NCBI RefSeq assembly: GCF_009914755.1
Contig: NC_060931.1
DNA length: 64,000 nt
Origin: the human T2T-CHM13v2.0 reference genome, Homo sapiens
Direction: 5' to 3' (one strand)
Shown here: piece after piece, positions 658 through 63,066 of the stretch
Layout of the letters: every line of letters starts with the position of its first letter
Position numbering within the stretch: the stretch's first letter is position 1
The notes under the pieces: model-generated
The model's database searches: none
Told to the model about the DNA's origin: nothing
The model's input: the letters and a program-made list of their open reading frames with translations, nothing else
Made by a program: the position numbers and the translations under genes

Positions 658-1178
<521 letters not shown>

Positions 1179-2153: not shown

Positions 2154-2319
2154 TTACCCACTTTATACAGGTGGTGTCGGTGTTAAAGTCATTTATTGAG
2201 AGCCTACCATATGCTAGATTGTGTGTATTGAAGTACCTCCTCTACTAAGCCAAGAGCACCTCAAAGGCAAGACCATTTCCTATTCCCATCTGTGACAGGT
2301 AGTAGAATCTGACTGGCTG

Positions 2320-2500
2320 AGCTTGGAGCTGGACTCTGCACCTTGCTAGCTCTGTGTCCCTGGGCAAGTTACTAACTTCTCACCTGGAAAGTGGAGATCA
2401 GGACACCACCTCCCCTCTAGAATTCTTGTGAGACCTAAATAAGATAACACACATAGCACAGGGCTTGCAGGGCACACCATGAATGTTAGCAATTGTTCTG
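2320..2500 (+). mobile_element. MIR fragment
   Basis: ctgtgtccctgggcaagttactaacttct ... gtgagacctaaataagataac resembles the MIR core. Confidence 0.6.
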
Positions 2501-3254
2501 ACTGTATTTATGAGATCAGTGCCTGGCGCACATCTGTTTTTTGAAATACGGTAAACAGTAAATGCTCAACAAATGGTAGTTCTTTTTCATAAGCTTTCTT
2601 TAAATAGTCTTGCAGTTCACATGTGACAGATCATGGTGGTATGTTCCACTGGGACTGATCCCAAGAAATGAAGATGAGGTTTTCTAGAGTTTAACTCTGA
2701 AAGTTCCCTTCAAACATGTTTCTTCATTTGGTAGCTGCACACCGACGGAGGAGTGGGTGACGGAATTTGGACCAACTCATTCAGTGTCTTAGGGTATTAG
2801 TGTGTTCATGTAGTCATTTGCCTCAGCTAAGCCCAACCTCCATGATCTTTAGCCATGCTGAGCTGGAGAGAAAGCAGTACCCGAGAATGTTCATGGAGCT
2901 TGCTGCCTGAACATGGACCCTACACATGCACCTGCTAGGGGAGGAGAGTGATGGTGTGTGTGTATGTGTGTATTGTGGGAAGTGGTGAGGTGGTAATACA
3001 GCTAGGAGAGCAAGATAAAGAACATGATGACTCAGGGGTCCTTTATTTTACGTGGCATTTCCAAAATGTGGCTTCTGATGACACAACTGCCCCACATTCC
3101 CAGCCCGTCTCAGGTATACCTCAGGCTTTCCCTTCTTCCCATTGGCTTTTTCTTTTTTACTTAGAGAGATATTTATTAAGATCGAAATCCACTAAAGAAA
3201 ACACAAAAAGTAGCAAGAAACCACTTTAGTGAGAGGACTTTTTGGGAGAGTGTA

Positions 3255-3686
3255 TGTGATAGTTAATACTGAGTGTCAACTTGATTGGATTGAAGGATAC
3301 AAAGTATTGATCCTGGGTGTGTCTGTGAGGGTGTTGCCAAAAGAGATTAACATTTGAGTCAGTGGGCTGGGGAAGGCAGATCCACCCTTAATCTGGTGGG
3401 CACAATCTAATCAGCTGCCAGCGAATATAAAGCAGGCAGAAAAACGTGAAAAGGAGAGACTGGCCTAGCCTCCCAGCCTACCTCTTTCTCCCGTGCTGGA
3501 TGCTTTCTGCCCTCGAACATCAGACTCCAAGTTCTTCACTTTTGGGACTCAGACTGGCTCTCCTTGCTCAGCAGCTTGCAGACAGCCTATTGTGGGACTT
3601 TGTGATCATCTAAGTTAATACTTAATAAAGTTCCCTTTATATCTATCCTATTAGTTCTGTCCCTCTAGAGAACCCTGACTAACACA
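3255..3686 (+). mobile_element. Solo MLT2A (probably MLT2A1, HERV-L) LTR
   Basis: Runs from tgtgatagttaatactgagtgtcaacttgattggattgaagg to ctagagaaccctgactaacaca, 432 bp. Perfect 5-bp TSD gtgta at 3250-3254 and 3687-3691. Confidence 0.92.
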
Positions 3687-6600
3687 GTGTATGTATGGTT
3701 TTATTTTTTATTGCTTCCAATATTTTCTAGACCTGCTCAATGTGGTGTTGGAGAGCTCAGTTTGGCCCTGGCAAGACACCAATGCAGGCTCTTGGTTCTC
3801 TGGGCTCCTTGTTTTTCTTCTGGGCCCAGGAACCTTTAGTGTTAGTGACATGGAGCTGGTGGGCTTGGCTGTTGGATTTAACTACTCTCTTCATATGTTC
3901 TCTGAAGGACTTTTCAGATATTGAGGTGAATCTTTAACCTTCTAAATTCTTCAGGTAGCTTGGCTGGTCACCAGCCTTGCCTTCCAGAACATGTAAGGCC
4001 TGAATATTTTAGTCTCTGCAGGGGTAGATGGAGTCACAGGAGGAGGAATTGACGAGCTAGCTGGGTTTTCAGGTTTTCAGTGTAAATCCAGGAACATGGG
4101 CCCTGGGGCCAGGCAGTGTTAGAGATGATTTAGTCTAACCTTTTCATTTTACAAACATAGAAGCCGAGCCCAGAGGGGTTAAATGACTTGCTTTTGTTCA
4201 CACTGCTGGGAGCAGCACCACGGCTGGGATGCAGGCCGTTGTGACTTCTGCTTTGAGGTTCTTTCTATTCTCTGCTCACACACCTAGACTTGATGAGGTA
4301 GAAATGAAACTCTGGCTTCTTAATCAATTCATAAGCATTACCTACTCCTCTTACCTTTTTTAAAATGGCATTTGCCTCCTCTTTATTTTGTTCAAGTTTC
4401 TTCTTCTTCTCCTCTTCCATGTAATATGTGTGCATGGAAGCAAAGTATATCATATGCCAAAGAACTTAAGTTAAATATTATCATTTCCCCTGACCACTCA
4501 CTAAAGGCAATCTTCTCTAAATTGTTTTTTGTTTGGTTTTGTTTTTGTTTTTGGAAGTTACTGCTAAACTCAATAACATGCTTCTGTCTTTGTTTCTTTA
4601 TTTGTTAGCTGTTGTAACATCTCTTAAGTCTCTGCCTTGAAAGATGCAGATTCAGCTCAGTTGTCCTGTGCCTCCTCTACCTCTGCCTTCTCTCATTACT
4701 TTATTCCATTATTGCTTTCGCTATTGGCTGTACACTTAAACCTTCCCTTTGTGGCCCATCAACTTTCCATCGTTTTGCGTAAGATGGAGTTCTAAGCTCT
4801 CTTAGGATCCTTTTCTTGCCCTCCTCTCTTCTACATTTCCACCTTTGGCATCTGCATAGTTACTTCCACATTGTTAAGTGATTTTCCTCTGTATTTTGTC
4901 CTGCAACCTCAATGATATCTTCTGTGCTTTTGGTTAACTCTAACAGTGAAAAATGAGTAAATTGCATTCATAATTATGACTATGCAATTCGTGTTTGTTG
5001 CTTGACCAAATCATGTGTTAGGATCCTTCTCTGGGGGACCTGAGGTCGTAACTCAAGGGCCTCTCAAAGAAGAATATTCCTAACGTCAATGTCGAATTGG
5101 TTAACTTTTTAAAAAACTTCATTGGTTGCTTAAAATTGTTTGACCAAGGTTGATAACTCTGTCTGTCTCTCCTAAAAAGGTTTCTGTCAACCTTTCCTCT
5201 TTCTCCTATCTCCCTCCCATCCTTTACTTCACAGTGAAATAGTCAAGTACCACTGAGTTTTCTTAGACTTAGGAGCTGTCAGAATTTAAGGGTCTAGTCT
5301 GTGAGAGGAGCTCAGTCAATGGTGAGATCGAATCTTTGGACCTCCTTTGGACCACCGGAATGAAATCACACGTTCCCTACAATAACAAGAGAAGCTGTTA
5401 TTTTGCAAAATCGATGGATATTGCTAATGAGTTTAAATTTTCTTTGTCTCTATTTATTTTTGGTCTTTTCTTCACAAAGGAGAATGTCAGCATAATAGCT
5501 GCTGTTTGATTGACGAATCCTGTTGTGACTGATAATAATGATTCTGATGCTTTGTGTTGAACCAAAATAATAAAAAGCCCGAGGGTACTTATAATATGCC
5601 TAGCTGAGTTTTGAATCATGGACATCTGAAGGCTTTACATAATATGACACTAGAAACAGCTGGTGAAGGAAAAGCCTGGAAGATCTCAAAAATTATCCCA
5701 GTTCTAAAGCGTGATACCTGCTGTTCTAAACTGCCATTTGGATGCTTGACTCGCATATGATGCAAAATATTGAAATAGATAATTTACCAAGCTTGCAATT
5801 TCTCATGCTGAAGAAAATATGCAATTAGGAAATGCCCAACATAGATTTAGAAAAGAGTCATTGCAACAACTCAAGTGGTTGATGTTAAACCATAATTTTC
5901 CCCAGATAATGGATTGCCACAGGAGCTGAATCCACTTGGCTGGATCCTCCACCTGTCACAAGTTTTCACCCCCTGCTCTCTGTCTGTTTGTGGGTTCTAG
6001 ATGGGAGAAGAGAAACACAGGGTGGCAGGAGATAAGCACTGGCTTTCCAGATTTGTCTTAAGTCTTGGCAAAATTTATACAACGGATTATAACATATATT
6101 CTCTGCAATTCATGTCTTTTTGAAATAGTAATTTTCTTTCTGATGTGATCGGGTGTTTGGAGTGGTTGGTGATGAAGTAGATGCATATCTTTATGGCATT
6201 ATAACCTGGAGGCAGAGGAAGCCCTGAAATGTGGTGAGTATCCACCATTCTAGACCATTTGCAGGTCTAGAAGGAACTCTAGGTCTATAGAGGGGAACCT
6301 GGCTCTTTGTGCCTCAAGTCAAGGTAATTTGGGCAAAACATATTACTGATTTTTCAGTTGCTGTAACAGATGTAAATGATGTAACAAGTATGCCAGCACT
6401 GGCTGTGATCTGGAAAACTTTAAAAGGGTCTGTGCTGTGTGTCTATGGAGTGGGTGTGAGGTGCGCAAAGGGAAGTAGAAGTAAAATTATGATTCAGAGG
6501 GAGGGTCTCTGCTTGGTAATTCTCCTCCTGGAAGAACTCCCCCTTAATTTGTGCATTCATTGCAATAACTTGACTGGAAAGTAACTATTCTATACTAGTG

Positions 6601-50234: not shown

Positions 50235-50328
50235 CGCTTCCCAACAGAGGACCATCTGATGATTCATAGGCACAAACATGAAATGACTTTGAAGTTTCCT
50301 TCAATAAAAACAGACAATATGTTATCAG
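50235..50328 (+). CDS. CREB5: CREB5 coding exon 3, 94 nt, phase 0-1: RFPTEDHLMIHRHKHEMTLKFPSIKTDNMLS(D)
   Basis: A pyrimidine tract plus gacAG acceptor ends at 50234, and the donor is CAG|GTAAGG at 50329. It continues exon 2 in frame. It holds the His half of the C2H2 finger and an ATF2-like KHEMTLKF docking motif. Confidence 0.97.
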
Positions 50329-55620: not shown

Positions 55621-58452
55621 TGGGTACTTTATGCTCAGGTGTCCTTTCTCCCTGACCTCTGGATGTGGTGGGACTGGATGTGGGTAAGACCACAAGCCCA
55701 CGTGTGGCACAGCTGACTATATCTTGAGCTGACGCTGAAGAGAGGCAGGAAAGACTGGCTTCTTTATCCCGTCTTCCTTTATTCATCAGATTCTCAGCAC
55801 TCACCATTTGATAGAAAGCATCTAACATAAATGACAATATAGTCCTTCAGAACCCAACTGTGTCCCTGGATTAGGTCTATAATCAGGGCCCATCTCTAGT
55901 TCCAGGCTCTAAACCTGATTCTCACCATGGAGAAGGCAAGAAAGTAATTCAGGGAAGTAAAACATTTGTCCTCAAGAGGCTAATCATGATCATCCAATCA
56001 CAGAACTGAGATCCATTGCTCATGGTTCTTTGCTAGAAGAGTCTACTTAATAATCCCTGGGCATTTTAAGGGGGAAGCTGGAGGGAAGATGGCGTATCTC
56101 ACTCCAAATTCTTTTTTAGAACGAGTTAGGGTATTGTAAAAACTGAGTAAATAAATCACACGCACACACACACGTGACCCATACTTACCTCTTCTTCTTG
56201 GCAATTCCATTGATAGTAAAGGTATATAGTAACTTCCCACCGTGTGTATTAATTGGATCTTTATGGAGCAGAGGGTGGGGGAGATGGCTTGCACCAGAGG
56301 GCAGCATGGTAATAATACTAGCTACCATTTATTGCCTTCCCTTATACCAGTCATTGCGCCCTGTGCTTTACATACATTAGGTCATTTAATCCTTACCACT
56401 TTTTTTTTCATATGAGGAAATAAGATCAAAGGAATAAGTAGTTTGCTCAAAGTCCATATATGTCTGTAATTTTCCTACCATACACCTAGATGTGTGAGCT
56501 GTACATACTAAGAACACATTTTGGTCTCAGTTGTATGTTTGGATATAAATCTCTGAACTACTTTTTCTTATATTATTGGTATCTCTTTAATAGTCATCCA
56601 ATGGAGAAAATAATCAAAAGTTTTTAGGAGATTCTTCTAACACATAAGCATTGAAAAGAACAAAGAGTTGTGGTTTAAAATCAGATTGTCTCATCCATTG
56701 TGACAAATAGAATGTAAGTGTTACTGGCATTTATAGGAGTTGTCCGTTTCTCGTCCGTATTCTTAGCTGGTCAAGCAAAATGGAATTTTGAATAATTCCC
56801 CTGAATCCTTTGGAGGCCTTGCTCTGCAGTATTCTTTTTTATATGAAAAGCTTGCTTGCTGTCTTCGTTCTGTCTGGAAACCAGTCCCCTTTGACTAAGA
56901 GTATAGGAGAACTCAGGCAATCAGGGACTCAGTGGAAAGTTAAGCATTAGCTTCTGCTATTCAGGGCAATTTTTGATAATAAAATCACCTTGGGTCCCCT
57001 AGCTCACTCGGCCAGCAGAGACTTGATCTCTTGGTGTTAATAACCCTTCTTACTAGCTTAGCCTCAGTAATGCAAATTGAAATTGTGGCTTGATTGCAGT
57101 TGGAACACTTGGGGTAGCTCATGGTTGATCGTGAGTAGGTGTGGAATATATAATTGGTTACTTTAAAACTATGTCTTTTGGAGCTAGTTGAGCATGCGTT
57201 GTAAGAGACACCTTTGTCAGAGCATTGTCTAATGGACTCACAGGCACTTGGAAGAGCATCTAGTCCCACAGTTGTCTATCTTGGCAATGAATGGATCCCA
57301 GTATATGAGTCAAGAGTGTAAGAGGGTGTTCCATCTCCCCACTGACCTGGATCACCCTGGCCAGGATGGTTTTTAAGCATTCCATGTCTGTTGCTTAAAA
57401 ACCAGGTCTGCCTTGGTTTGTCCCATTGTAGCACTGCCTTTCAGGACAGATGCAGGGAAACAGTAACATCAGTGTTACTGAGAGACTCCTATTATATATT
57501 CACACTCAATAAAAGGCACATTTGTTGCAAAGAAGTCTAAAATTCCATGGAATTCTGTGTGTTGTGATTGATTATCGATCTTACAAATGATTATGTGTAT
57601 TAAAATTCATTTAATGTAAATTTTCTTAAATTAGGGCTCTATTAAAATTTAGATAGGGACTAAGTTGGAATATTTTAAAGAAAGCATTTGCTGAAATATT
57701 TATGAGATAAATGTAACCAAAAAAAAATATGAAAAGTACCTAAGAAAAATACCTTTTTAGATAACTCTAACTCTTACTAAAATAGATATACTAATTCCAA
57801 TATTTTTCTCCACTGATTTGAATAGCCCTCTTGAGGAATCCTATTAGGCCACCTTTTTGTTTGGTTGAATCTGAGTCATGCAAATAATAAAAATGCATTG
57901 CCTTTAAAGAATATCCTGTAATTAGACTGGCCGCTAATTCAGACTAACCTTTATTGTAACTAATGAGGCTTTTTATAGTATTTCTAGCCACTATCAGTTT
58001 CATGCCATATGATGTAACATTATTTTCACAGTCCTTTAGTAATACCATAGTTGAGAATATCAGACCAATAGGAAAGAAAATTTTGCTTAGGAAGTTAATA
58101 TTATTTTCTGGTATGTGATGGGACCCCTGCATTTTCCCTTCTTTTCTTTTTTAAATTGGTGATTTGTCACTTTGACTTTTTTAACCATTGAGGAAAATGA
58201 AACAGAAAAACACATAATACAAATGCAGCTCTGAAAGGGAGTAAGGTAGCAATCTATTATTAAATGTAGAGCAGACTAAATGCTTTTTAAAAGAAGAATC
58301 AGATTTCAGAATTTAGCATTTTTCTTGTCATTTAGTTTTACTTTGGAATAATTGCACTTGCTGGGCTGAAGCTCTTGATGCTAGGCAGACTATGAACTGA
58401 TAGGAAGCGCTAAGAGTCGCATATGCATTGAGCCGTATGCTTGTCTGCCCAG

Positions 58453-58587
58453 CTGATAATGTGACTGATTGGGTAATTCCTAATTCATAAGGCCAAGTTT
58501 GTAGCAATCTGCTGGATCGATCCACAAGTAGTCTCAGCAAGGCAAGTATCCTGTACCTACCAATTTACAGAGGCAGTGATTCCATGA
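58453..58587 (+). repeat. Left arm of a 135-bp inverted repeat
   Basis: Reverse complement of 60263-60397 with 4 mismatches and no gaps. Confidence 0.97.
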
Positions 58588-60262
58588 TTTGGAAATTGTG
58601 TCATATAATTTGATTGGTAATTGATAATCCTAACAACTTTCGGTTCTTTTGAAATATTTTGGAATCATTCATATCCCTCACCAATAGAACTGCATTACAA
58701 TCCTACTGACTCTCTCCTATCTTAAAGGAACAGTTTTGCAATTCAAATACCTGAGAAAATCACATAAGATAACAGAAATATTAGACTACCCATCATCAGT
58801 GGGAATTGAGTTTGCCAGTTTTTAATCTTCCTTTTATCCCTTTATGCTTCTTTGCTTGAGATTTAGAAATTGAGGGCCATGATTCATAGAGAGGTAAAGA
58901 GAACAGTCATCCTAGCAGCCTCTCTCAGACTCCTGAACTCTGAGATGAGGTCATGAGATGGTCCATGAAATTGAATTCAGGCTGGCATGTGAGAGCCCAA
59001 GCCCCAAGCACGTTGAGCGATGTTTTCTGTCTGCTCTTAAAAAAGATTGTTCCCAGATACCAGCACACACCTACACACATGAACAAAGGAGGTTGCGGGA
59101 GGATGGCATAGGCATGGGATTGACACAGTCCAGCATCACCAGCCTCTTCAGCCATGGAGAAATGAAAGCTCCGGGGCCAGGGGAGCCACAGACTGCAAAG
59201 ACAACTGCTTCCCTCCCACCCCCAGAGCAGAAGGACCAGAAAAAGGTCCCAGGGCTGTTACCAAATGTGATTTTCTTTGCTGTAGGATATAGTTAGAGAA
59301 AAGCAAAGTCGATACCCACATTTGGAATAGATAAGGCACACTGTCCCAAATTTTAAATTCATTTTCTTTTTGTGAGTGAGCTATTCTTTCCAGTTACAAC
59401 AAGAACCAGAAAATGGGGCTTAACTTTTGTTTTAACATTTATGAGAATTAATACAAGGTCTCTAGTTATCTTTGATCTCACACGGTACCAGTTCCAAGTA
59501 AGCCAGAAAATGTGCAGATGTTAAAAAAAGGGGACAGCTAAATCTATCAACACACGAATGCCTTGTCAAATAACTATTTCTGCTGAAATTAGACCTGAAG
59601 ATGGTGTGCAATCTCCATGGCCATAAATTAAAATTCTTGTAAATCACACCTTATTTAGAGCCAAGAACAGGCACCAGTCAGCTCCAGCCCCAGTGATTTC
59701 TAGATCCTGAATAATAATGGCGGATGCTCCATTGGTGCATAATATCTAAGGTGTGCTCATTGAGTATTGATAGGAGGCCCTTGGGGGGTTTACAGGAGCT
59801 GGTTTCAATAAGAACTTAAAGCCAAGACGATTGTTTCAGGCCTTCCACTCACTGTTCTTTTAGTGCTTCAACTACAGTGAGGACCCTCTGAATGAGAGAA
59901 GGGAATAAACCCATCTCAAACCAAACTAAAAACAAGTAACTTTTGGGTTTGAGAGTTGAAAGTTTTTTTTGTTGTTACTGCTATTGTAAATCTGAAGTGG
60001 CGCTGCATAAACACCCGTGTGTTACCCTCTCCAGAGAGTTTGCAAATAGCACACCAGGTTCCCAGGAGACCTAAGCACCAGGGCAAGTGCGAGTAGGAAC
60101 TGTTACCCACTCCTCTCACTGTCTTGCATATCCTTGGGGATTTCTTTGACAAGAAAGATTGGCACCAAAAGGAGTTTAAAAAAACCTCCTTTGCAACGTT
60201 TGTCATATTTCAGTATCTGGTTCCCTTGGTGAGTTGGTTTGCTGAAAAAAAGGAGTGTCTTT

Positions 60263-60397
60263 TCATGGAATCACTACCTCTGTAAATTGGTTGGTACAGG
60301 ATACTTGCCTTGCTGAGACTACTTGTGGATCGATCCAGCAGAGTGCTACAAACTTGGCCTTATGAATTAGGAATTACCCCATCAGTCACATTATCAG
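60263..60397 (-). repeat. Right arm of the 135-bp inverted repeat
   Basis: Reverse complement of 58453-58587. Confidence 0.97.
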
Positions 60398-60404
60398 GCC
60401 TGGG

Positions 60405-60510
60405 GCAGGTCTCAGTTTCTTCATATGTAAACCAGGAAAAATAATTTTTACATAATATGGTTGGTGTAAAAACTAATGAGATGCTGTATGCAAAGCACTT
60501 AGCAGAATAT
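60405..60510 (+). mobile_element. MIR 3' half abutting the right inverted-repeat arm
   Basis: ctcagtttcttcatatgtaaa...taatgagatgctgtatgcaaagcacttagca matches MIR. Confidence 0.7.
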
Positions 60511-60519
60511 GTGCTCATG

Positions 60520-60577
60520 CACGTGCACACACACGCACACACACACATGCACACACGCACGCACACACGCACATACA
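60520..60577. repeat. Imperfect (CA/CG)n alternating purine-pyrimidine tract
   Basis: cacgtgcacacacacgcacacacacacatgcacacacgcacgcacacacgcacatacac. Confidence 0.9.
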
Positions 60578-61658
60578 CCCTTTTATTTTCACTCTCAGAT
60601 CTTGTCCATACACTTTCTATTCAGAAAACTCCTTTATCTATATAGCCAGCCCTTGCCTCTGACCTGTTAGTATCAAACTTCCAGCTGTTACTTATGTTCC
60701 CATTTGACTGTCCTTTAGTCACATATTTCTTCGGGCTATGAACAGTGACTTTTTAAAGCTAACCCATTATGGTGGTGATTTTAGGATTTATAGGATCATA
60801 CAACTTTAGAAATTTTTTTGAAAGATGAGGAATATGAAGTCCAGAGAATGTAGGTAAATTCCCCCATATTACAGTATTCTCAAATCTAGATTTCTGGGTT
60901 GTTGAAATTGTTTTCTACACACACAACAGAGCCCTTTGGATCAGGGAGGGCAAAGCATTGAATTTAGATCAAAAAGGGATAGTGTCTGAAGGTAAGAGAG
61001 GACTTAGTAGTGATAAGATGGTTACAAATTGTGTAACCTTGTTCAAGGAAGCTCGTTTCTTCATTTATAAAATAGTATCGACTCTTGTTACCTCATAGAA
61101 TCATGCGAGATCTAGATTCTAGACAATATGAGTGAAAATGTTAATTGCAAAATCCTGCATAAATATTAATTTTGTCTTCTATAAACACACAATAGTTATA
61201 TGTGTATATTAGGGACCTAGGTGTATATGTGTGCCTCTTAATAAATAAATTAGTTGCTAATAAAACAATATTCAACAAAACCCACTCTTTCACACATCCC
61301 TTATCTGTAATGCCGAATTTATGAACAGCTGTGGTATGCTCTCTGTGAAATGCAAGGAGCTCAGTATCTTGGAGATTAGGTCAAGAATGGGAAGAAATGC
61401 AGATGGGGATTTTGCTGCATGGAATCCAAGTCAGCCATTTGGGTGCTGAAAGTTGCTTGCCCAGAGGGAATCAAGAGACATTGCCTCTAAAGGGCTGATT
61501 CGGTGGGGGATATTACACCACTTTCTCCTTCATGGGTATTAAGATATTCTTTGAATCAGACAATTTACTGATTTACTGGGCTTAACTATTCTCTGTATGA
61601 TTTAGAAAAGTAAATATAATTCTAGTTTCTTATAATATAGGAATTTATAAAGAGAATG

Positions 61659-61830
61659 CAGGAATGGCAAATTTGTTTCAACTTGAGGGCACCTCTTCAG
61701 TTGACTGGTTAATGGCTTAGAGAACTATGCAGAGATTTTGAGACAGTCTAGATCAAGCTGGGAAAATGCCATAATTAATCTAATCCAGTCTACTACAGGG
61801 TTAGGTGGGAATAATACATGTACACAGTGG
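61659..61830. mobile_element. MER102-like hAT-Charlie remnant
   Basis: caggaatggcaaatttgtttca...tgactggttaatggct...ctgggaaaatgccataattaat resembles recalled MER102. Confidence 0.55.
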
Positions 61831-62944
61831 AAATAGCATTGAGGCCTTGGTTATAATCCTGTTGTCTCTACCATTTATCTGGGAGACCTTAAGCAAGACT
61901 GTTAATTACTCTGGGCCTCTGTTTTTCTGATCTGCAAAAATTTAGCATGGCTAGGCTTTCTTCCGTGGTCCTTTCTGCTTCTAATATCTCCTGTTTCTGA
62001 GAAAAGACCATTTACACAATTTTATTTGTCTCAACTCAAGTACACCTTCACCAAGGAAGATGATTGCACTCAATGACGATGGAAGTGCAATTCTACTCTA
62101 CTTACCTTCTATTTAATGGAATCTTGTGAGATCTAGATTCTCAAGAATTGTATGAAAATACTTTATAAACTGCAAATGCTGCATATATATTAAGCTACAA
62201 ATAGTGGCTTCAGCTCCATCAGTTTTATAAGTAGAAAGCTCTGTAGAAAGTAAAAAATATGAAAGAAATTCTTTTCCTTTTAAAGAGCATTTGCAGAACA
62301 TTCTTTTTTTGGCTATAGCAAAGGAAAATAAAATTAATAATGACATTTTTAAAGGATGAAAGCTGAATGTGTTTGACTTGGAACTTTTTATCATCCTTCT
62401 ATGATTTTCAGAAAGAGAGACAGAATTGTTAAGTTTTCTTTCTCCATTAAGAAAAATGAATTAACATGCTTGTTTGTTTCTTTTTGTTTACTATAAGAAT
62501 TTGCAAAATCCTTTTTCTTTCCAGCCCCCTGAAGTCAGGCTTAACATTGGGTCAGATTTTTTTTTGGCCTTATTTTAGCAAAATCATTTTCTTTTTAAAG
62601 TTCAAAATAAATATAGAAAGAAAAAGGGTCATTCCACATGTTTCAATGTGTATTCAAATGGTACAGACTTCAGACAAGTGGAGAGTGAGATCTCCTGAAG
62701 TTGTCTGGAGGGAGTTCAGCAAAAGCCCTCGCAGACTACAGCCTTCTGTCTACTGTATTCCTGCTTCGGAATTTACGGTTTTATTTTCTTGCATATCGTT
62801 ATGTTATTTAAAGGGCCAAGAGACTGGATGGCTAGTGGACATTTTAATTAAGGCAAGGGGAGGGGATTAGTGAATCTAGCTCATGCTTGCTACTGGCTTT
62901 TGAGAAAAAAGACCCATTTATGAGCTCTCCGACTCTGTTTTCAG

Positions 62945-63066
62945 ATCAAACTCCGACCCCAACGAGATTCCTGAAGAACTGCGAGGAGGTGGGCCTCTTC
63001 AGCGAGCTGGACTGCTCCCTGGAGCACGAGTTCAGGAAGGCTCAGGAAGAGGAGAGCAGCAAGCGG
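62945..63066 (+). CDS. CREB5: CREB5 coding exon 4, 122 nt, phase 1-0: (D)QTPTPTRFLKNCEEVGLFSELDCSLEHEFRKAQEEESSKR
   Basis: The ctgttttcAG acceptor ends at 62944, and the donor is CGG|GTAGGT at 63067. G|AT completes the Asp codon. DQTPTPTRFLKNCEEVGLF is the ATF2/ATF7/CREB5 transactivation signature. Confidence 0.97.

What the first reader, a model, noticed from the sequence alone, without database searches (positions are those of the whole stretch)
58453..60397. 135-bp near-perfect inverted duplication of non-TE sequence enclosing a 1675-bp loop in CREB5 intron 3
Seen: 58453-58587 is the reverse complement of 60263-60397 at 131/135 with no gaps. The mismatched pairs are 58470/60380, 58507/60343, 58558/60292 and 58574/60276, and the longest perfect run is 50 bp. 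Weaker gapped similarity continues about 10 bp outward. I do not recognise the arm as any repeat family, there is no TSD, and the right arm abuts a truncated MIR, suggesting it is the derived copy from a template switch. Inference: in the pre-mRNA it would form a duplex far more perfect than a typical Alu pair, making it a possible ADAR or dsRNA-sensor substrate, an endo-siRNA source, or a splicing loop-out. A60276 sits in UAC opposite C, an A:C mismatch that ADARs favour. At DNA level the arms could mediate inversion of the spacer or be homogenised by gene conversion. None of the mismatches is a G-U wobble, so the sequence alone shows no selection for pairing.
Basis: partly seen in the sequence, partly recalled or inferred. 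Interest (0 to 1): 0.8.

Follow-up and report, generated by a model that had tools for sequence, protein, structure and literature searches.

The report
Unique inverted micro-duplication in CREB5 intron
A 135-base stretch of ordinary single-copy DNA occurs twice in opposite orientation, 1.7 kb apart, inside a CREB5 intron; it is real and is not a jumping gene, but it looks like the scar of one old DNA rearrangement and nothing here shows a working function.

Summary
58453-58587 is the reverse complement of 60263-60397 at 131/135, with the four listed mismatches, a longest perfect run of 50 and a 1675-bp spacer.

- **Not a transposon.** The arm has only these two copies in the whole assembly. 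Spacer and left flank are single copy. The same search found 11 other copies, 73-78% identical, of the old dispersed repeat beside the right arm. There is no target-site duplication beyond chance and no transposase remnant.
- **RNA folding.** As sense RNA the arms are predicted to pair: -257 kcal/mol, and 137 arm-arm pairs in the minimum-energy fold.
- **Best reading.** A one-off breakage/repair or replication error produced the duplication, dated roughly to ape or Old World monkey ancestors from 3% arm divergence. I favour a small inversion with a staggered break, but only weakly: the spacer's strand composition is reversed relative to the intron, likelihood ratio about 2.
- **Limits.** No primate genome, population data or editing data could be reached, so polarity, age and RNA editing stay untested.
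- **Sensors and splicing.** The duplex is shorter than the 300 bp cited for MDA5 and is intronic. It encloses no exon.

This is a member of a known, sparse class, the non-repetitive intronic dsRNA-forming repeats. Interest is low to moderate.

The parts
58453..58587 (+). Left arm of the inverted duplication (135 bp, 42% G+C, one CpG inside a 10-bp palindrome at 58514-58523)
   Evidence: only two copies in the genome
58588..60262 (.). Spacer, 1675 bp. Single copy, no long ORF, no repeat-family or Rfam match. Its strand composition is opposite to the rest of the intron.
   Evidence: 1 match = itself; longest stop-to-stop ORF 115 aa; 0 Pfam families at cut-off in the 7 of 17 ORFs scanned; (skews)
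60263..60397 (-). Right arm, the reverse complement of the left arm at 131/135
58445..58452 (+). Possible 8-bp outward continuation of the left arm. It pairs with 60400-60408 through 2 gaps and is not beyond chance.
60399..60513 (-). Truncated copy of an old dispersed repeat (MIR by my recollection of its consensus). It abuts the right arm and is not part of the duplication.
   Evidence: 11 other genomic copies, 73-78%; de novo profile, E = 2.5e-14, profile positions 154-290
60516..60585 (.). Alternating purine-pyrimidine (CA/CG) microsatellite about 120 bp right of the right arm. It is a possible fragile site near one breakpoint (inference only).
   Evidence: source of the sub-threshold Rfam hits

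Best explanation
This is a lineage-specific inverted micro-duplication of ancestrally unique intron sequence, the scar of a single DNA breakage/repair or replication error. It is not a mobile element and not a selected RNA structure.

The mechanism I favour is this. A segment of about 1.8 kb was inverted after one staggered break, whose long overhang was filled in, and one nearly blunt break. The 135 bp between the staggered nicks then ended up at both ends of the inverted segment in opposite orientation, as in the staggered-break model of Ranz et al. 2007. Since then the two copies have drifted apart by 4 substitutions (3.0%).

Without gene conversion this dates the event roughly between the human-chimpanzee ancestor and the Old World monkey ancestor. 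That range comes from the Poisson interval 0.8-7.6%, set against primate divergence figures that I recall.

As a consequence, and not as a purpose, the CREB5 pre-mRNA carries a 135-143-bp, 97% paired duplex closing a 1.7-kb loop. It should form in the nucleus and be a good ADAR substrate until the intron is degraded.

Shown: the repeat, its uniqueness, its sharp inner ends, the absence of TE hallmarks, and the predicted fold. Inferred: the inversion, the date, neutrality, and editing.
For: - The repeat is exact as described.
- The arm has 2 copies in the 3.1-Gb assembly at E <= 10. Spacer and left flank have 1 copy each.
- The same tool found 11 other copies, 73-78% identical, of the neighbouring old repeat, so it can detect copies about 25% diverged.
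- No TSD. No ORF over 115 aa, and no Pfam family at cut-off in the 7 of 17 ORFs scanned.
- Inner ends are sharp and the outward extension is not beyond chance.
- The four mismatches are spread as random placement predicts: a longest run of at least 50 occurs in 73% of 100,000 simulations. There is therefore no sign of a conversion tract.
- Ranz et al. (PMC1885836, passages) report inverted duplications of non-repetitive sequence at 17 of 29 fixed Drosophila inversions. [quoted passage not shown] That is the architecture seen here.
- Spacer orientation: the window's sense strand has T-over-A skew +0.044 and G-over-C skew +0.051. The spacer has -0.034 and -0.006, and the sum lies in the lowest 6.8% of 293 overlapping windows.
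- A Markov orientation classifier was trained on 262 kb of CREB5 introns and is right for 77-80% of 131 held-out 1675-bp pieces at orders 0-3. It calls the spacer antisense, with LLR -2.5 to -3.4, the lowest 12-13%.
- RNA: arm duplex -257 kcal/mol against -29 and -31 for each arm alone, and 137 arm-arm pairs in the minimum-energy fold of 58400-60450.
Against: - No outgroup genome could be consulted, so inversion, polarity and date are all inference.
- The strand-asymmetry evidence is weak. My normal approximation gives a likelihood ratio of only about 2 for 'inverted'. About 12% of ordinary segments score as low. The classifier gives -0.8 at order 4 and +3.1 at order 5, where it is less accurate at 73%.
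- The staggered-break model is documented in the paper I read for Drosophila, not for humans.
- Three of the 4 differences are transversions, which is unusual for neutral decay. With a 2:1 transition bias (recalled), my hand binomial gives p about 0.11.
- The missing part of the neighbouring old repeat was not found at the other breakpoint, where a clean inversion through an intact copy would have put it.
- Nothing excludes that the near-identity is kept by gene conversion, so the structure could be much older.
Confidence: 0.55

Rival explanations
1. Templated inverted insertion without inversion. At a break or stalled fork near 60262/60398, the 3' end switched to the complementary strand 1.7 kb upstream. 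It copied 135-146 nt, then returned (MMBIR/FoSTeS-type or fold-back repair). One arm is then a pure insertion and the spacer keeps its ancestral orientation.
For: It gives the same final architecture. The arm is unique, and the boundaries are sharp with little or no microhomology. Template switching is documented in great apes (PMC7954356). The right arm's outer end coincides with the truncation point of the old repeat.
Against: The event is longer than the published maximum for short-range events (128 nt) and about ten times further away (about 100 nt). The other half of the interrupted repeat is not found left of the right arm. The spacer's reversed strand composition mildly favours inversion.
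Confidence: 0.28
2. An older inverted repeat whose arms are kept alike by intrachromosomal gene conversion, and which may still flip the spacer by non-allelic homologous recombination, giving a polymorphic or recurrent 1.8-kb inversion.
For: Inverted repeats do mediate recurrent human inversions (PMC3961182, abstract and passages). The arm identity of 97% is high.
Against: At 135 bp the arms lie at the lower edge of what I recall as sufficient for efficient mammalian homologous recombination. The mismatches are evenly spread, with no long converted block beyond random expectation. CREB5 does not occur in the supplements held as text for the 1,019-genome long-read study; there are 3 such files, one of them cut when stored, so this is weak.
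Confidence: 0.1
3. A selected RNA structure: a long-range intronic duplex kept because ADAR editing, dsRNA-binding proteins or looping-out tune CREB5 splicing or expression, or because it yields small RNAs.
For: The duplex is predicted to dominate the fold. Its length (135-143 bp), longest uninterrupted helix (50 bp) and loop (1.7 kb) match or exceed the medians reported for edited non-repetitive human dsRNAs: 144 bp, 31 bp, and loops of about 2 kb (PMC11838218, section read).
Against: All 4 mismatches break pairs and none is compensated or a G-U pair. No Rfam family reaches its threshold. Both arms lie in one intron and enclose no annotated exon, so no exon skipping or back-splicing is predicted (hub table). 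CREB5 is absent from the held supplements of two long-range RNA-structure catalogues and of the dsRNAscan preprint; these files are small and the full catalogues were not visible.
Confidence: 0.04
4. A DNA transposon or other mobile element with 135-bp terminal inverted repeats, or an assembly artefact.
For: Terminal inverted repeats flanking a segment of about 1.7 kb is the classic transposon shape.
Against: Arm, spacer and flank are single copy. No TSD. No transposase-like ORF. The assembly is a telomere-to-telomere long-read one according to the hub, and its reads should span 2 kb (inference; reads not seen).
Confidence: 0.03

Closest known systems
Inversion-associated inverted duplications (staggered-break model; Ranz et al. 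2007, PMC1885836)
   Same: Inverted copies of ancestrally unique, non-repetitive sequence bracket a segment. Only one breakpoint's sequence is duplicated. The size lies inside the reported 46 bp-1.9 kb range.
   Different: Those cases are described for large Drosophila inversions proven by outgroup comparison. Here the enclosed segment is only 1.7 kb, and its inversion is merely suggested by strand composition.
Non-repetitive intramolecular dsRNAs of the human genome (dsRNAscan catalogue; Andrews and Bass 2025 preprint, PMC11838218)
   Same: An inverted repeat within 10 kb on a transcribed strand, with non-repeat arms, length near the median of edited members, and an intronic position like 96% of genic predictions.
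   Different: It is much better paired than typical members: 97% against medians of 77-85% given there for repetitive dsRNAs. I could not see whether the catalogue lists it or whether it is edited.
Inverted Alu pairs, the main ADAR substrates
   Same: An intronic inverted repeat forming a long duplex. Several Alu-like pairs exist in this same window.
   Different: The arms are single copy, half as long, and 97% rather than 76-87% paired. The origin is a local duplication, not two retrotranspositions.
Short-range template-switch mutations (Walker et al. 2021, PMC7954356)
   Same: The new sequence is the reverse complement of nearby sequence.
   Different: The copied piece is 135-146 nt against a median of 12 and a maximum of 128. 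The template is 1.7 kb away, against a search space of about 100 nt.
Inverted-repeat-mediated polymorphic inversions (Aguado et al. 2014, PMC3961182)
   Same: A segment is flanked by highly identical inverted repeats.
   Different: The arms are far shorter than what I recall as the usual size for such repeats (not looked up here). No evidence of two orientations could be sought.

Membership tests
DNA transposon / MITE with terminal inverted repeats | Multiple copies in the genome | tested here: not met
   The arm has 2 matches, both the arms themselves. The spacer has 1 match. Positive control: the neighbouring old repeat gave 11 other copies.
DNA transposon / MITE with terminal inverted repeats | Target-site duplication at the outer ends | tested here: not met
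   The longest direct match is 4 nt over 272 boundary choices. This is reached or exceeded by chance in 59% of 500 trials.
DNA transposon / MITE with terminal inverted repeats | Transposase gene or remnant (autonomous copies) | tested here: not met
   There are 17 stop-to-stop ORFs of at least 50 aa, the longest 115 aa. The 7 longest were scanned against Pfam, and 0 families reached the curated cut-off.
Inversion with staggered-break inverted duplication | Inverted copies of ancestrally unique sequence at both ends of a segment | tested here: met
Inversion with staggered-break inverted duplication | Enclosed segment inverted relative to the ancestral order | tested here: inconclusive
   No outgroup was on hand. 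The strand-composition proxy points to inversion but weakly: lowest 6.8% of 293 windows, and classifier LLR -2.5 to -3.4 at orders 0-3 with a sign change at order 5.
Short-range template-switch mutation | Copied piece of tens of nt, templated within about 100 nt | tested here: not met
   The copy is 135-146 nt and the template 1675 nt away, against a median of 12, a maximum of 128 and a +/-100 nt search space.
Intramolecular dsRNA / ADAR substrate | At least 25-30 bp of near-continuous pairing between segments of one transcript | tested here: met
   Predicted only: duplex -257 kcal/mol and 137 arm-arm pairs in the MFE. Both arms lie on the sense strand of a CREB5 intron (hub table).
Intramolecular dsRNA / ADAR substrate | Observed A-to-I editing or duplex ligation reads | not testable with these tools
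   No editing database or RNA-seq data is reachable.
MDA5-type immunogenic self dsRNA | More than 300 bp, more than 96% paired, and present in a cytoplasmic transcript | tested here: not met
   The pairing is 97%, but the duplex is only 135-143 bp and intronic. The criteria are from PMC11838218.
Intronic complementary sequences that drive back-splicing or exon skipping | The two arms lie in different introns flanking an exon | tested here: not met
   Both arms lie in the 12,616-nt intron between exons 50235-50328 and 62945-63066. They are 8,125 nt and 2,548 nt from the splice sites (hub table).
Known RNA family (Rfam 15) | Score at or above the family's gathering threshold | tested here: not met
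   0 of 8 matches at E <= 1 in 57000-62000 reach the threshold. Six of them lie on the CA microsatellite.

The most novel reading that the evidence does not exclude
The two 135-bp arms are still recombining. They are kept 97% alike by gene conversion and flip the 1.7-kb spacer back and forth in human populations or tissues. Meanwhile the nearly perfect nuclear duplex is heavily ADAR-edited and slows or tunes removal of this CREB5 intron. That would make it a small, non-transposon 'invertible' element with an RNA-level effect inside a developmental transcription-factor gene.
Probability: 0.06. Interest if true: 0.5.

Novelty: new member of a known kind. Interest (0 to 1): 0.25.

Why it matters
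If the reading is right, this is a clean human example of how one small rearrangement creates a long, almost perfect intronic RNA duplex from unique sequence, without any transposon. Such non-repetitive duplexes are sparse: about 2 per Mb according to the dsRNAscan preprint. They are useful as natural test cases for ADAR editing and nuclear dsRNA handling, because reads map to them uniquely, unlike Alu pairs. It would also be a datable marker for primate phylogeny of this locus. It does not by itself open a long-standing question. A genome-wide catalogue built with einverted at a far lower score threshold should already contain it; I infer this from its method and did not see it listed.

Tried and rejected
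1. My own idea that the outer ~40 bp of the left arm is the missing half of the old repeat next to the right arm, that is, one repeat split by the event. I built a profile from 25 matches in the window (with 58300-60600 masked) and 3 other loci. It matched only 60399-60513 and nothing else in 58201-60700 at E <= 100 with filters off, so I rejected the idea. The profile was over-extended: 406 positions, of which only about 100-325 carry information. The E-values of its own training members are therefore inflated.

2. Outward gapped extension of the arms: present but not beyond chance.

3. Rfam: nothing at threshold.

4. ORFs and Pfam: nothing.

I used the 200 kb already held plus the window.

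7. Literature on this very locus:
- A full-text search for CREB5 with 'inverted repeat' and 'inversion' gave no paper on it among the 15 listed of 4,474.
- 'CREB5' occurs in none of the held supplements of PMC11838218 (1 file), PMC12350158 (3 files, one cut), PMC8052449 (5 files) or PMC10691357 (1 file).
- These files are partial, so absence says little. bioRxiv supplements and web resources (dsRNAscan browser, REDIportal, InvFEST, HPRC) could not be seen.

8. npInv paper (PMC6044046, passages): it gave no usable lower limit for arm length and no chr7 entry in the text.

Full report
**The observation**

The window holds a 135-bp inverted repeat, 58453-58587 and 60263-60397, with 1675 bp between the arms. 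A base-by-base comparison gives 131 of 135 complementary positions. The four exceptions are at 58470/60380, 58507/60343, 58558/60292 and 58574/60276, and the longest perfect run is 50.

On the sense strand (CREB5 is on +) the four non-pairs are U.C, A.G, U.U and C.A. None is a wobble pair, and A60276 does sit in U-A-C opposite a C.

A gapped alignment adds 8 matched bases outward, 58445-58452 with 60400-60408, through two gaps. This raises the score by only 2. That is matched by 296 of 3000 shuffled flanks and 485 of 3000 random pairs of window sequence, so I do not count it as part of the repeat. Inward the similarity stops dead, with an extension score of 0.

Against the whole 3.1-Gb assembly the second arm has E = 3.9e-57. 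Chance is not an issue.

**Is it a repeat family?**

- Searching the window's own genome with the arm gave 2 candidates and 2 matches, the arms themselves.
- A 321-base query covering the left arm and both its flanks, at E <= 10, gave the same two places.
- The 1675-bp spacer and the 1053 bp to the left each matched only themselves.
- The tool warns that very common words are skipped and that counts are lower bounds, so I ran a positive control. The 128 bases just right of the right arm gave 11 other places at 73-78% identity. Nine are on the acrocentric contigs C13, C14, C15 and C21, with scores in only two values (65.3 and 60.8 bits), probably copies of one duplicated block. One each is on C6 and C20.
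- The search therefore sees copies about 25% diverged, and the arm has none.
- There is no target-site duplication. The longest direct match over 272 choices of boundaries is 4 nt, which random places reach in 59% of 500 trials.
- The region has 17 stop-to-stop ORFs of at least 50 aa, the longest 115 aa. The 7 longest gave no Pfam family at the curated cut-off, with one sub-threshold hit at E = 0.049.
- Rfam gave 8 matches at E <= 1 in 57000-62000, none at its gathering score. Six of them lie on a CA microsatellite.

The transposon reading and the known-RNA reading both fail their defining tests.

**The neighbour of the right arm**

Starting from 60398-60525, I collected matches in the window (with 58300-60600 masked) and in three other loci. 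I iterated nhmmer four times and obtained a profile with 25 matches. Its informative core, about positions 100-325 of 406, reads like the MIR consensus as I remember it. The name rests on recall.

Run back on 58201-60700 with all filters off and E <= 100, the profile matches 60399-60513 (E = 2.5e-14, profile positions 154-290, with an 18-position gap near the start). Apart from a negative-scoring alignment in the spacer that touches only the profile's uninformative flank, it matches nothing else on either strand.

But the repeat's missing part is not on the other side of the right arm, as a simple insertion into an intact copy would predict. Nor is it next to the left arm, as a clean inversion through an intact copy would predict. 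The repeat was either already truncated or lost sequence in the event. It does not tell which arm is derived. My own suspicion that the outer end of the left arm was that missing part is rejected by the same search.

**How it arose**

Two mechanisms give this architecture.

(a) An inversion whose one end was a staggered break. Filling in the overhang leaves the sequence between the nicks at both ends of the inverted segment, in opposite orientation. Ranz et al. found such inverted duplications of non-repetitive sequence at 17 of 29 fixed Drosophila inversions. [quoted passage not shown]

(b) A long-range template switch or fold-back repair that inserted an inverted copy without turning the spacer. 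The published short-range class is much smaller: median 12 nt, maximum 128 nt, and a search space of about 100 nt (PMC7954356, passages).

The two differ in one testable point, the orientation of the spacer. With no outgroup at hand I used the transcription-associated strand asymmetry of introns as a proxy.

- The window's sense strand has (T-A)/(T+A) = +0.044 and (G-C)/(G+C) = +0.051, while the spacer has -0.034 and -0.006.
- The sum, -0.039, lies in the lowest 6.8% of 293 overlapping 1675-bp windows, which have mean +0.098 and SD 0.096.
- I trained a Markov-chain orientation classifier on 262 kb of CREB5 intron: the window without the structure, plus 20 further 10-kb stretches. It-80% of 131 held-out non-overlapping pieces correctly at orders 0-3.
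- At those orders it calls the spacer antisense, with log-likelihood ratios of -2.5 to -3.4, the lowest 12-13% of ordinary pieces.
- At order 4 the value is -0.8. At order 5, where accuracy falls to 73%, it is +3.1.
- By a normal approximation of my own this amounts to a likelihood ratio of about 2 for an inverted spacer.

That tilts me towards (a) but settles nothing.

**Age and gene conversion**

Four differences in 135 give a Jukes-Cantor distance of 0.030, and the Poisson 95% interval for 4 events is 0.8-7.6%. Set against primate divergences as I recall them (human-chimpanzee about 1.2%, human-orangutan about 3%, human-macaque about 6-7%), the duplication would date between the human-chimpanzee ancestor and the catarrhine ancestor, if the arms have evolved independently.

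The mismatches are spread as random placement predicts: a longest run of at least 50 occurs in 73% of 100,000 simulations. There is therefore no positive sign of a conversion tract. With four events this is a weak statement.

**What it does**

As RNA, the two arms pair with -257 kcal/mol, against -29 and -31 kcal/mol for each arm folded alone. The minimum-energy fold of 58400-60450 contains 137 arm-arm pairs.

Both arms lie in the 12,616-nt intron between the exons at 50235-50328 and 62945-63066. They are 8,125 nt from the 5' splice site and 2,548 nt from the 3' splice site. Both are therefore on one nascent transcript before the intron is complete.

The dsRNAscan preprint (PMC11838218; sections 7, 9, 10 and 20 read) gives the context:
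- There are 5.13 million predicted human dsRNAs, and non-repetitive ones number only about 2 per Mb.
- 96% of the predictions inside protein-coding genes are intronic.
- Edited non-repetitive members have a median length of 144 bp.
- Edited dsRNAs overall have a median of 31 contiguous pairs, with the same trend reported for non-repetitive ones, and loops average about 2 kb.
- 31,017 predictions are more than 96% paired.

This duplex fits the profile of an edited member and is better paired than most. Editing by nuclear ADAR is the expected fate (inference).

It does not meet that paper's criterion for an MDA5 candidate, which is more than 300 bp, and it leaves with the intron. It encloses no annotated exon, so neither exon skipping nor back-splicing is predicted. 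Looping-out would shorten the effective intron by about 15%. All four mismatches break pairs and none is compensated, so nothing indicates selection for the structure.

**Comparison within the window**

A self-comparison on the minus strand gives 60 inverted pairs at E <= 1e-5. Among the 15 best by score, the other 14 are pairs of about 210-320 bp at 76-87% identity, belonging to a multi-copy family (Alu-like by size and copy number; the name is not tested). The present pair ranks 8th by score and is the only one of the 15 above 90%, at 95.2% over 146 gapped columns.

**What could not be done**

No primate or other vertebrate genome, no population assemblies, no editing or small-RNA data and no repeat library were reachable. 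Searches for the locus in print found nothing specific, but the supplements held are partial.

**Verdict**

This is a real, unique, non-transposon inverted micro-duplication. It is most likely the neutral scar of one small rearrangement in primate ancestors, with a predictable side effect: a long, nearly perfect nuclear RNA duplex. It is a tidy member of a known, sparse class and not a new kind of element.

Noticed in passing
window 60516-60585 (TRF row 60526-60578): An alternating purine-pyrimidine CA/CG microsatellite of about 70 bp lies some 120 bp right of the right arm, directly after the truncated old repeat. It produced the sub-threshold Rfam hits (mir-297, 44 bits against a cut-off of 90, and others). 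Such tracts are, from memory, prone to Z-DNA and breakage, so it might have seeded the break. This was not tested.
   Followed up: partly
window 857-1173 and 1829-2151: An inverted pair of a ~300-bp multi-copy (Alu-like) repeat, 87% identical over 323 columns and only 656 bp apart, is the best-scoring inverted pair in the window. Its right member overlaps the RefSeq 'enhancer' at 2003-2162 and lies just before the alternative-transcript exon span 2190-6233.
   Followed up: no
whole window and 200 kb of flanking CREB5 introns (L019-L038): The sense strand carries a clear excess of T over A and of G over C. The summed skew is positive in 25 of 27 blocks of about 10 kb. This is the expected transcription-associated asymmetry, strong enough to call the orientation of a 1.7-kb piece correctly about 4 times in 5.
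   Followed up: yes
window 58514-58523 (and its mirror in the right arm): Each arm contains the perfect 10-bp palindrome found, which holds the arm's only CpG. The CpG is intact in both copies.
   Followed up: no
whole window: According to the hub's table only about 10% of the window is repeat-masked, far below the roughly half that I recall as the genome-wide average. This repeat-poor landscape is often seen around developmental regulators. Whether the arm or spacer is a conserved non-coding element could not be checked.
   Followed up: no
own genome, contigs C13, C14, C15, C21 (loci L004-L012): Nine matches to the old repeat fragment carry only two score values (65.3 and 60.8 bits) and sit on the short-arm ends of acrocentric chromosomes. 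This suggests one segment copied among them, so they are not nine independent repeat insertions.
   Followed up: no
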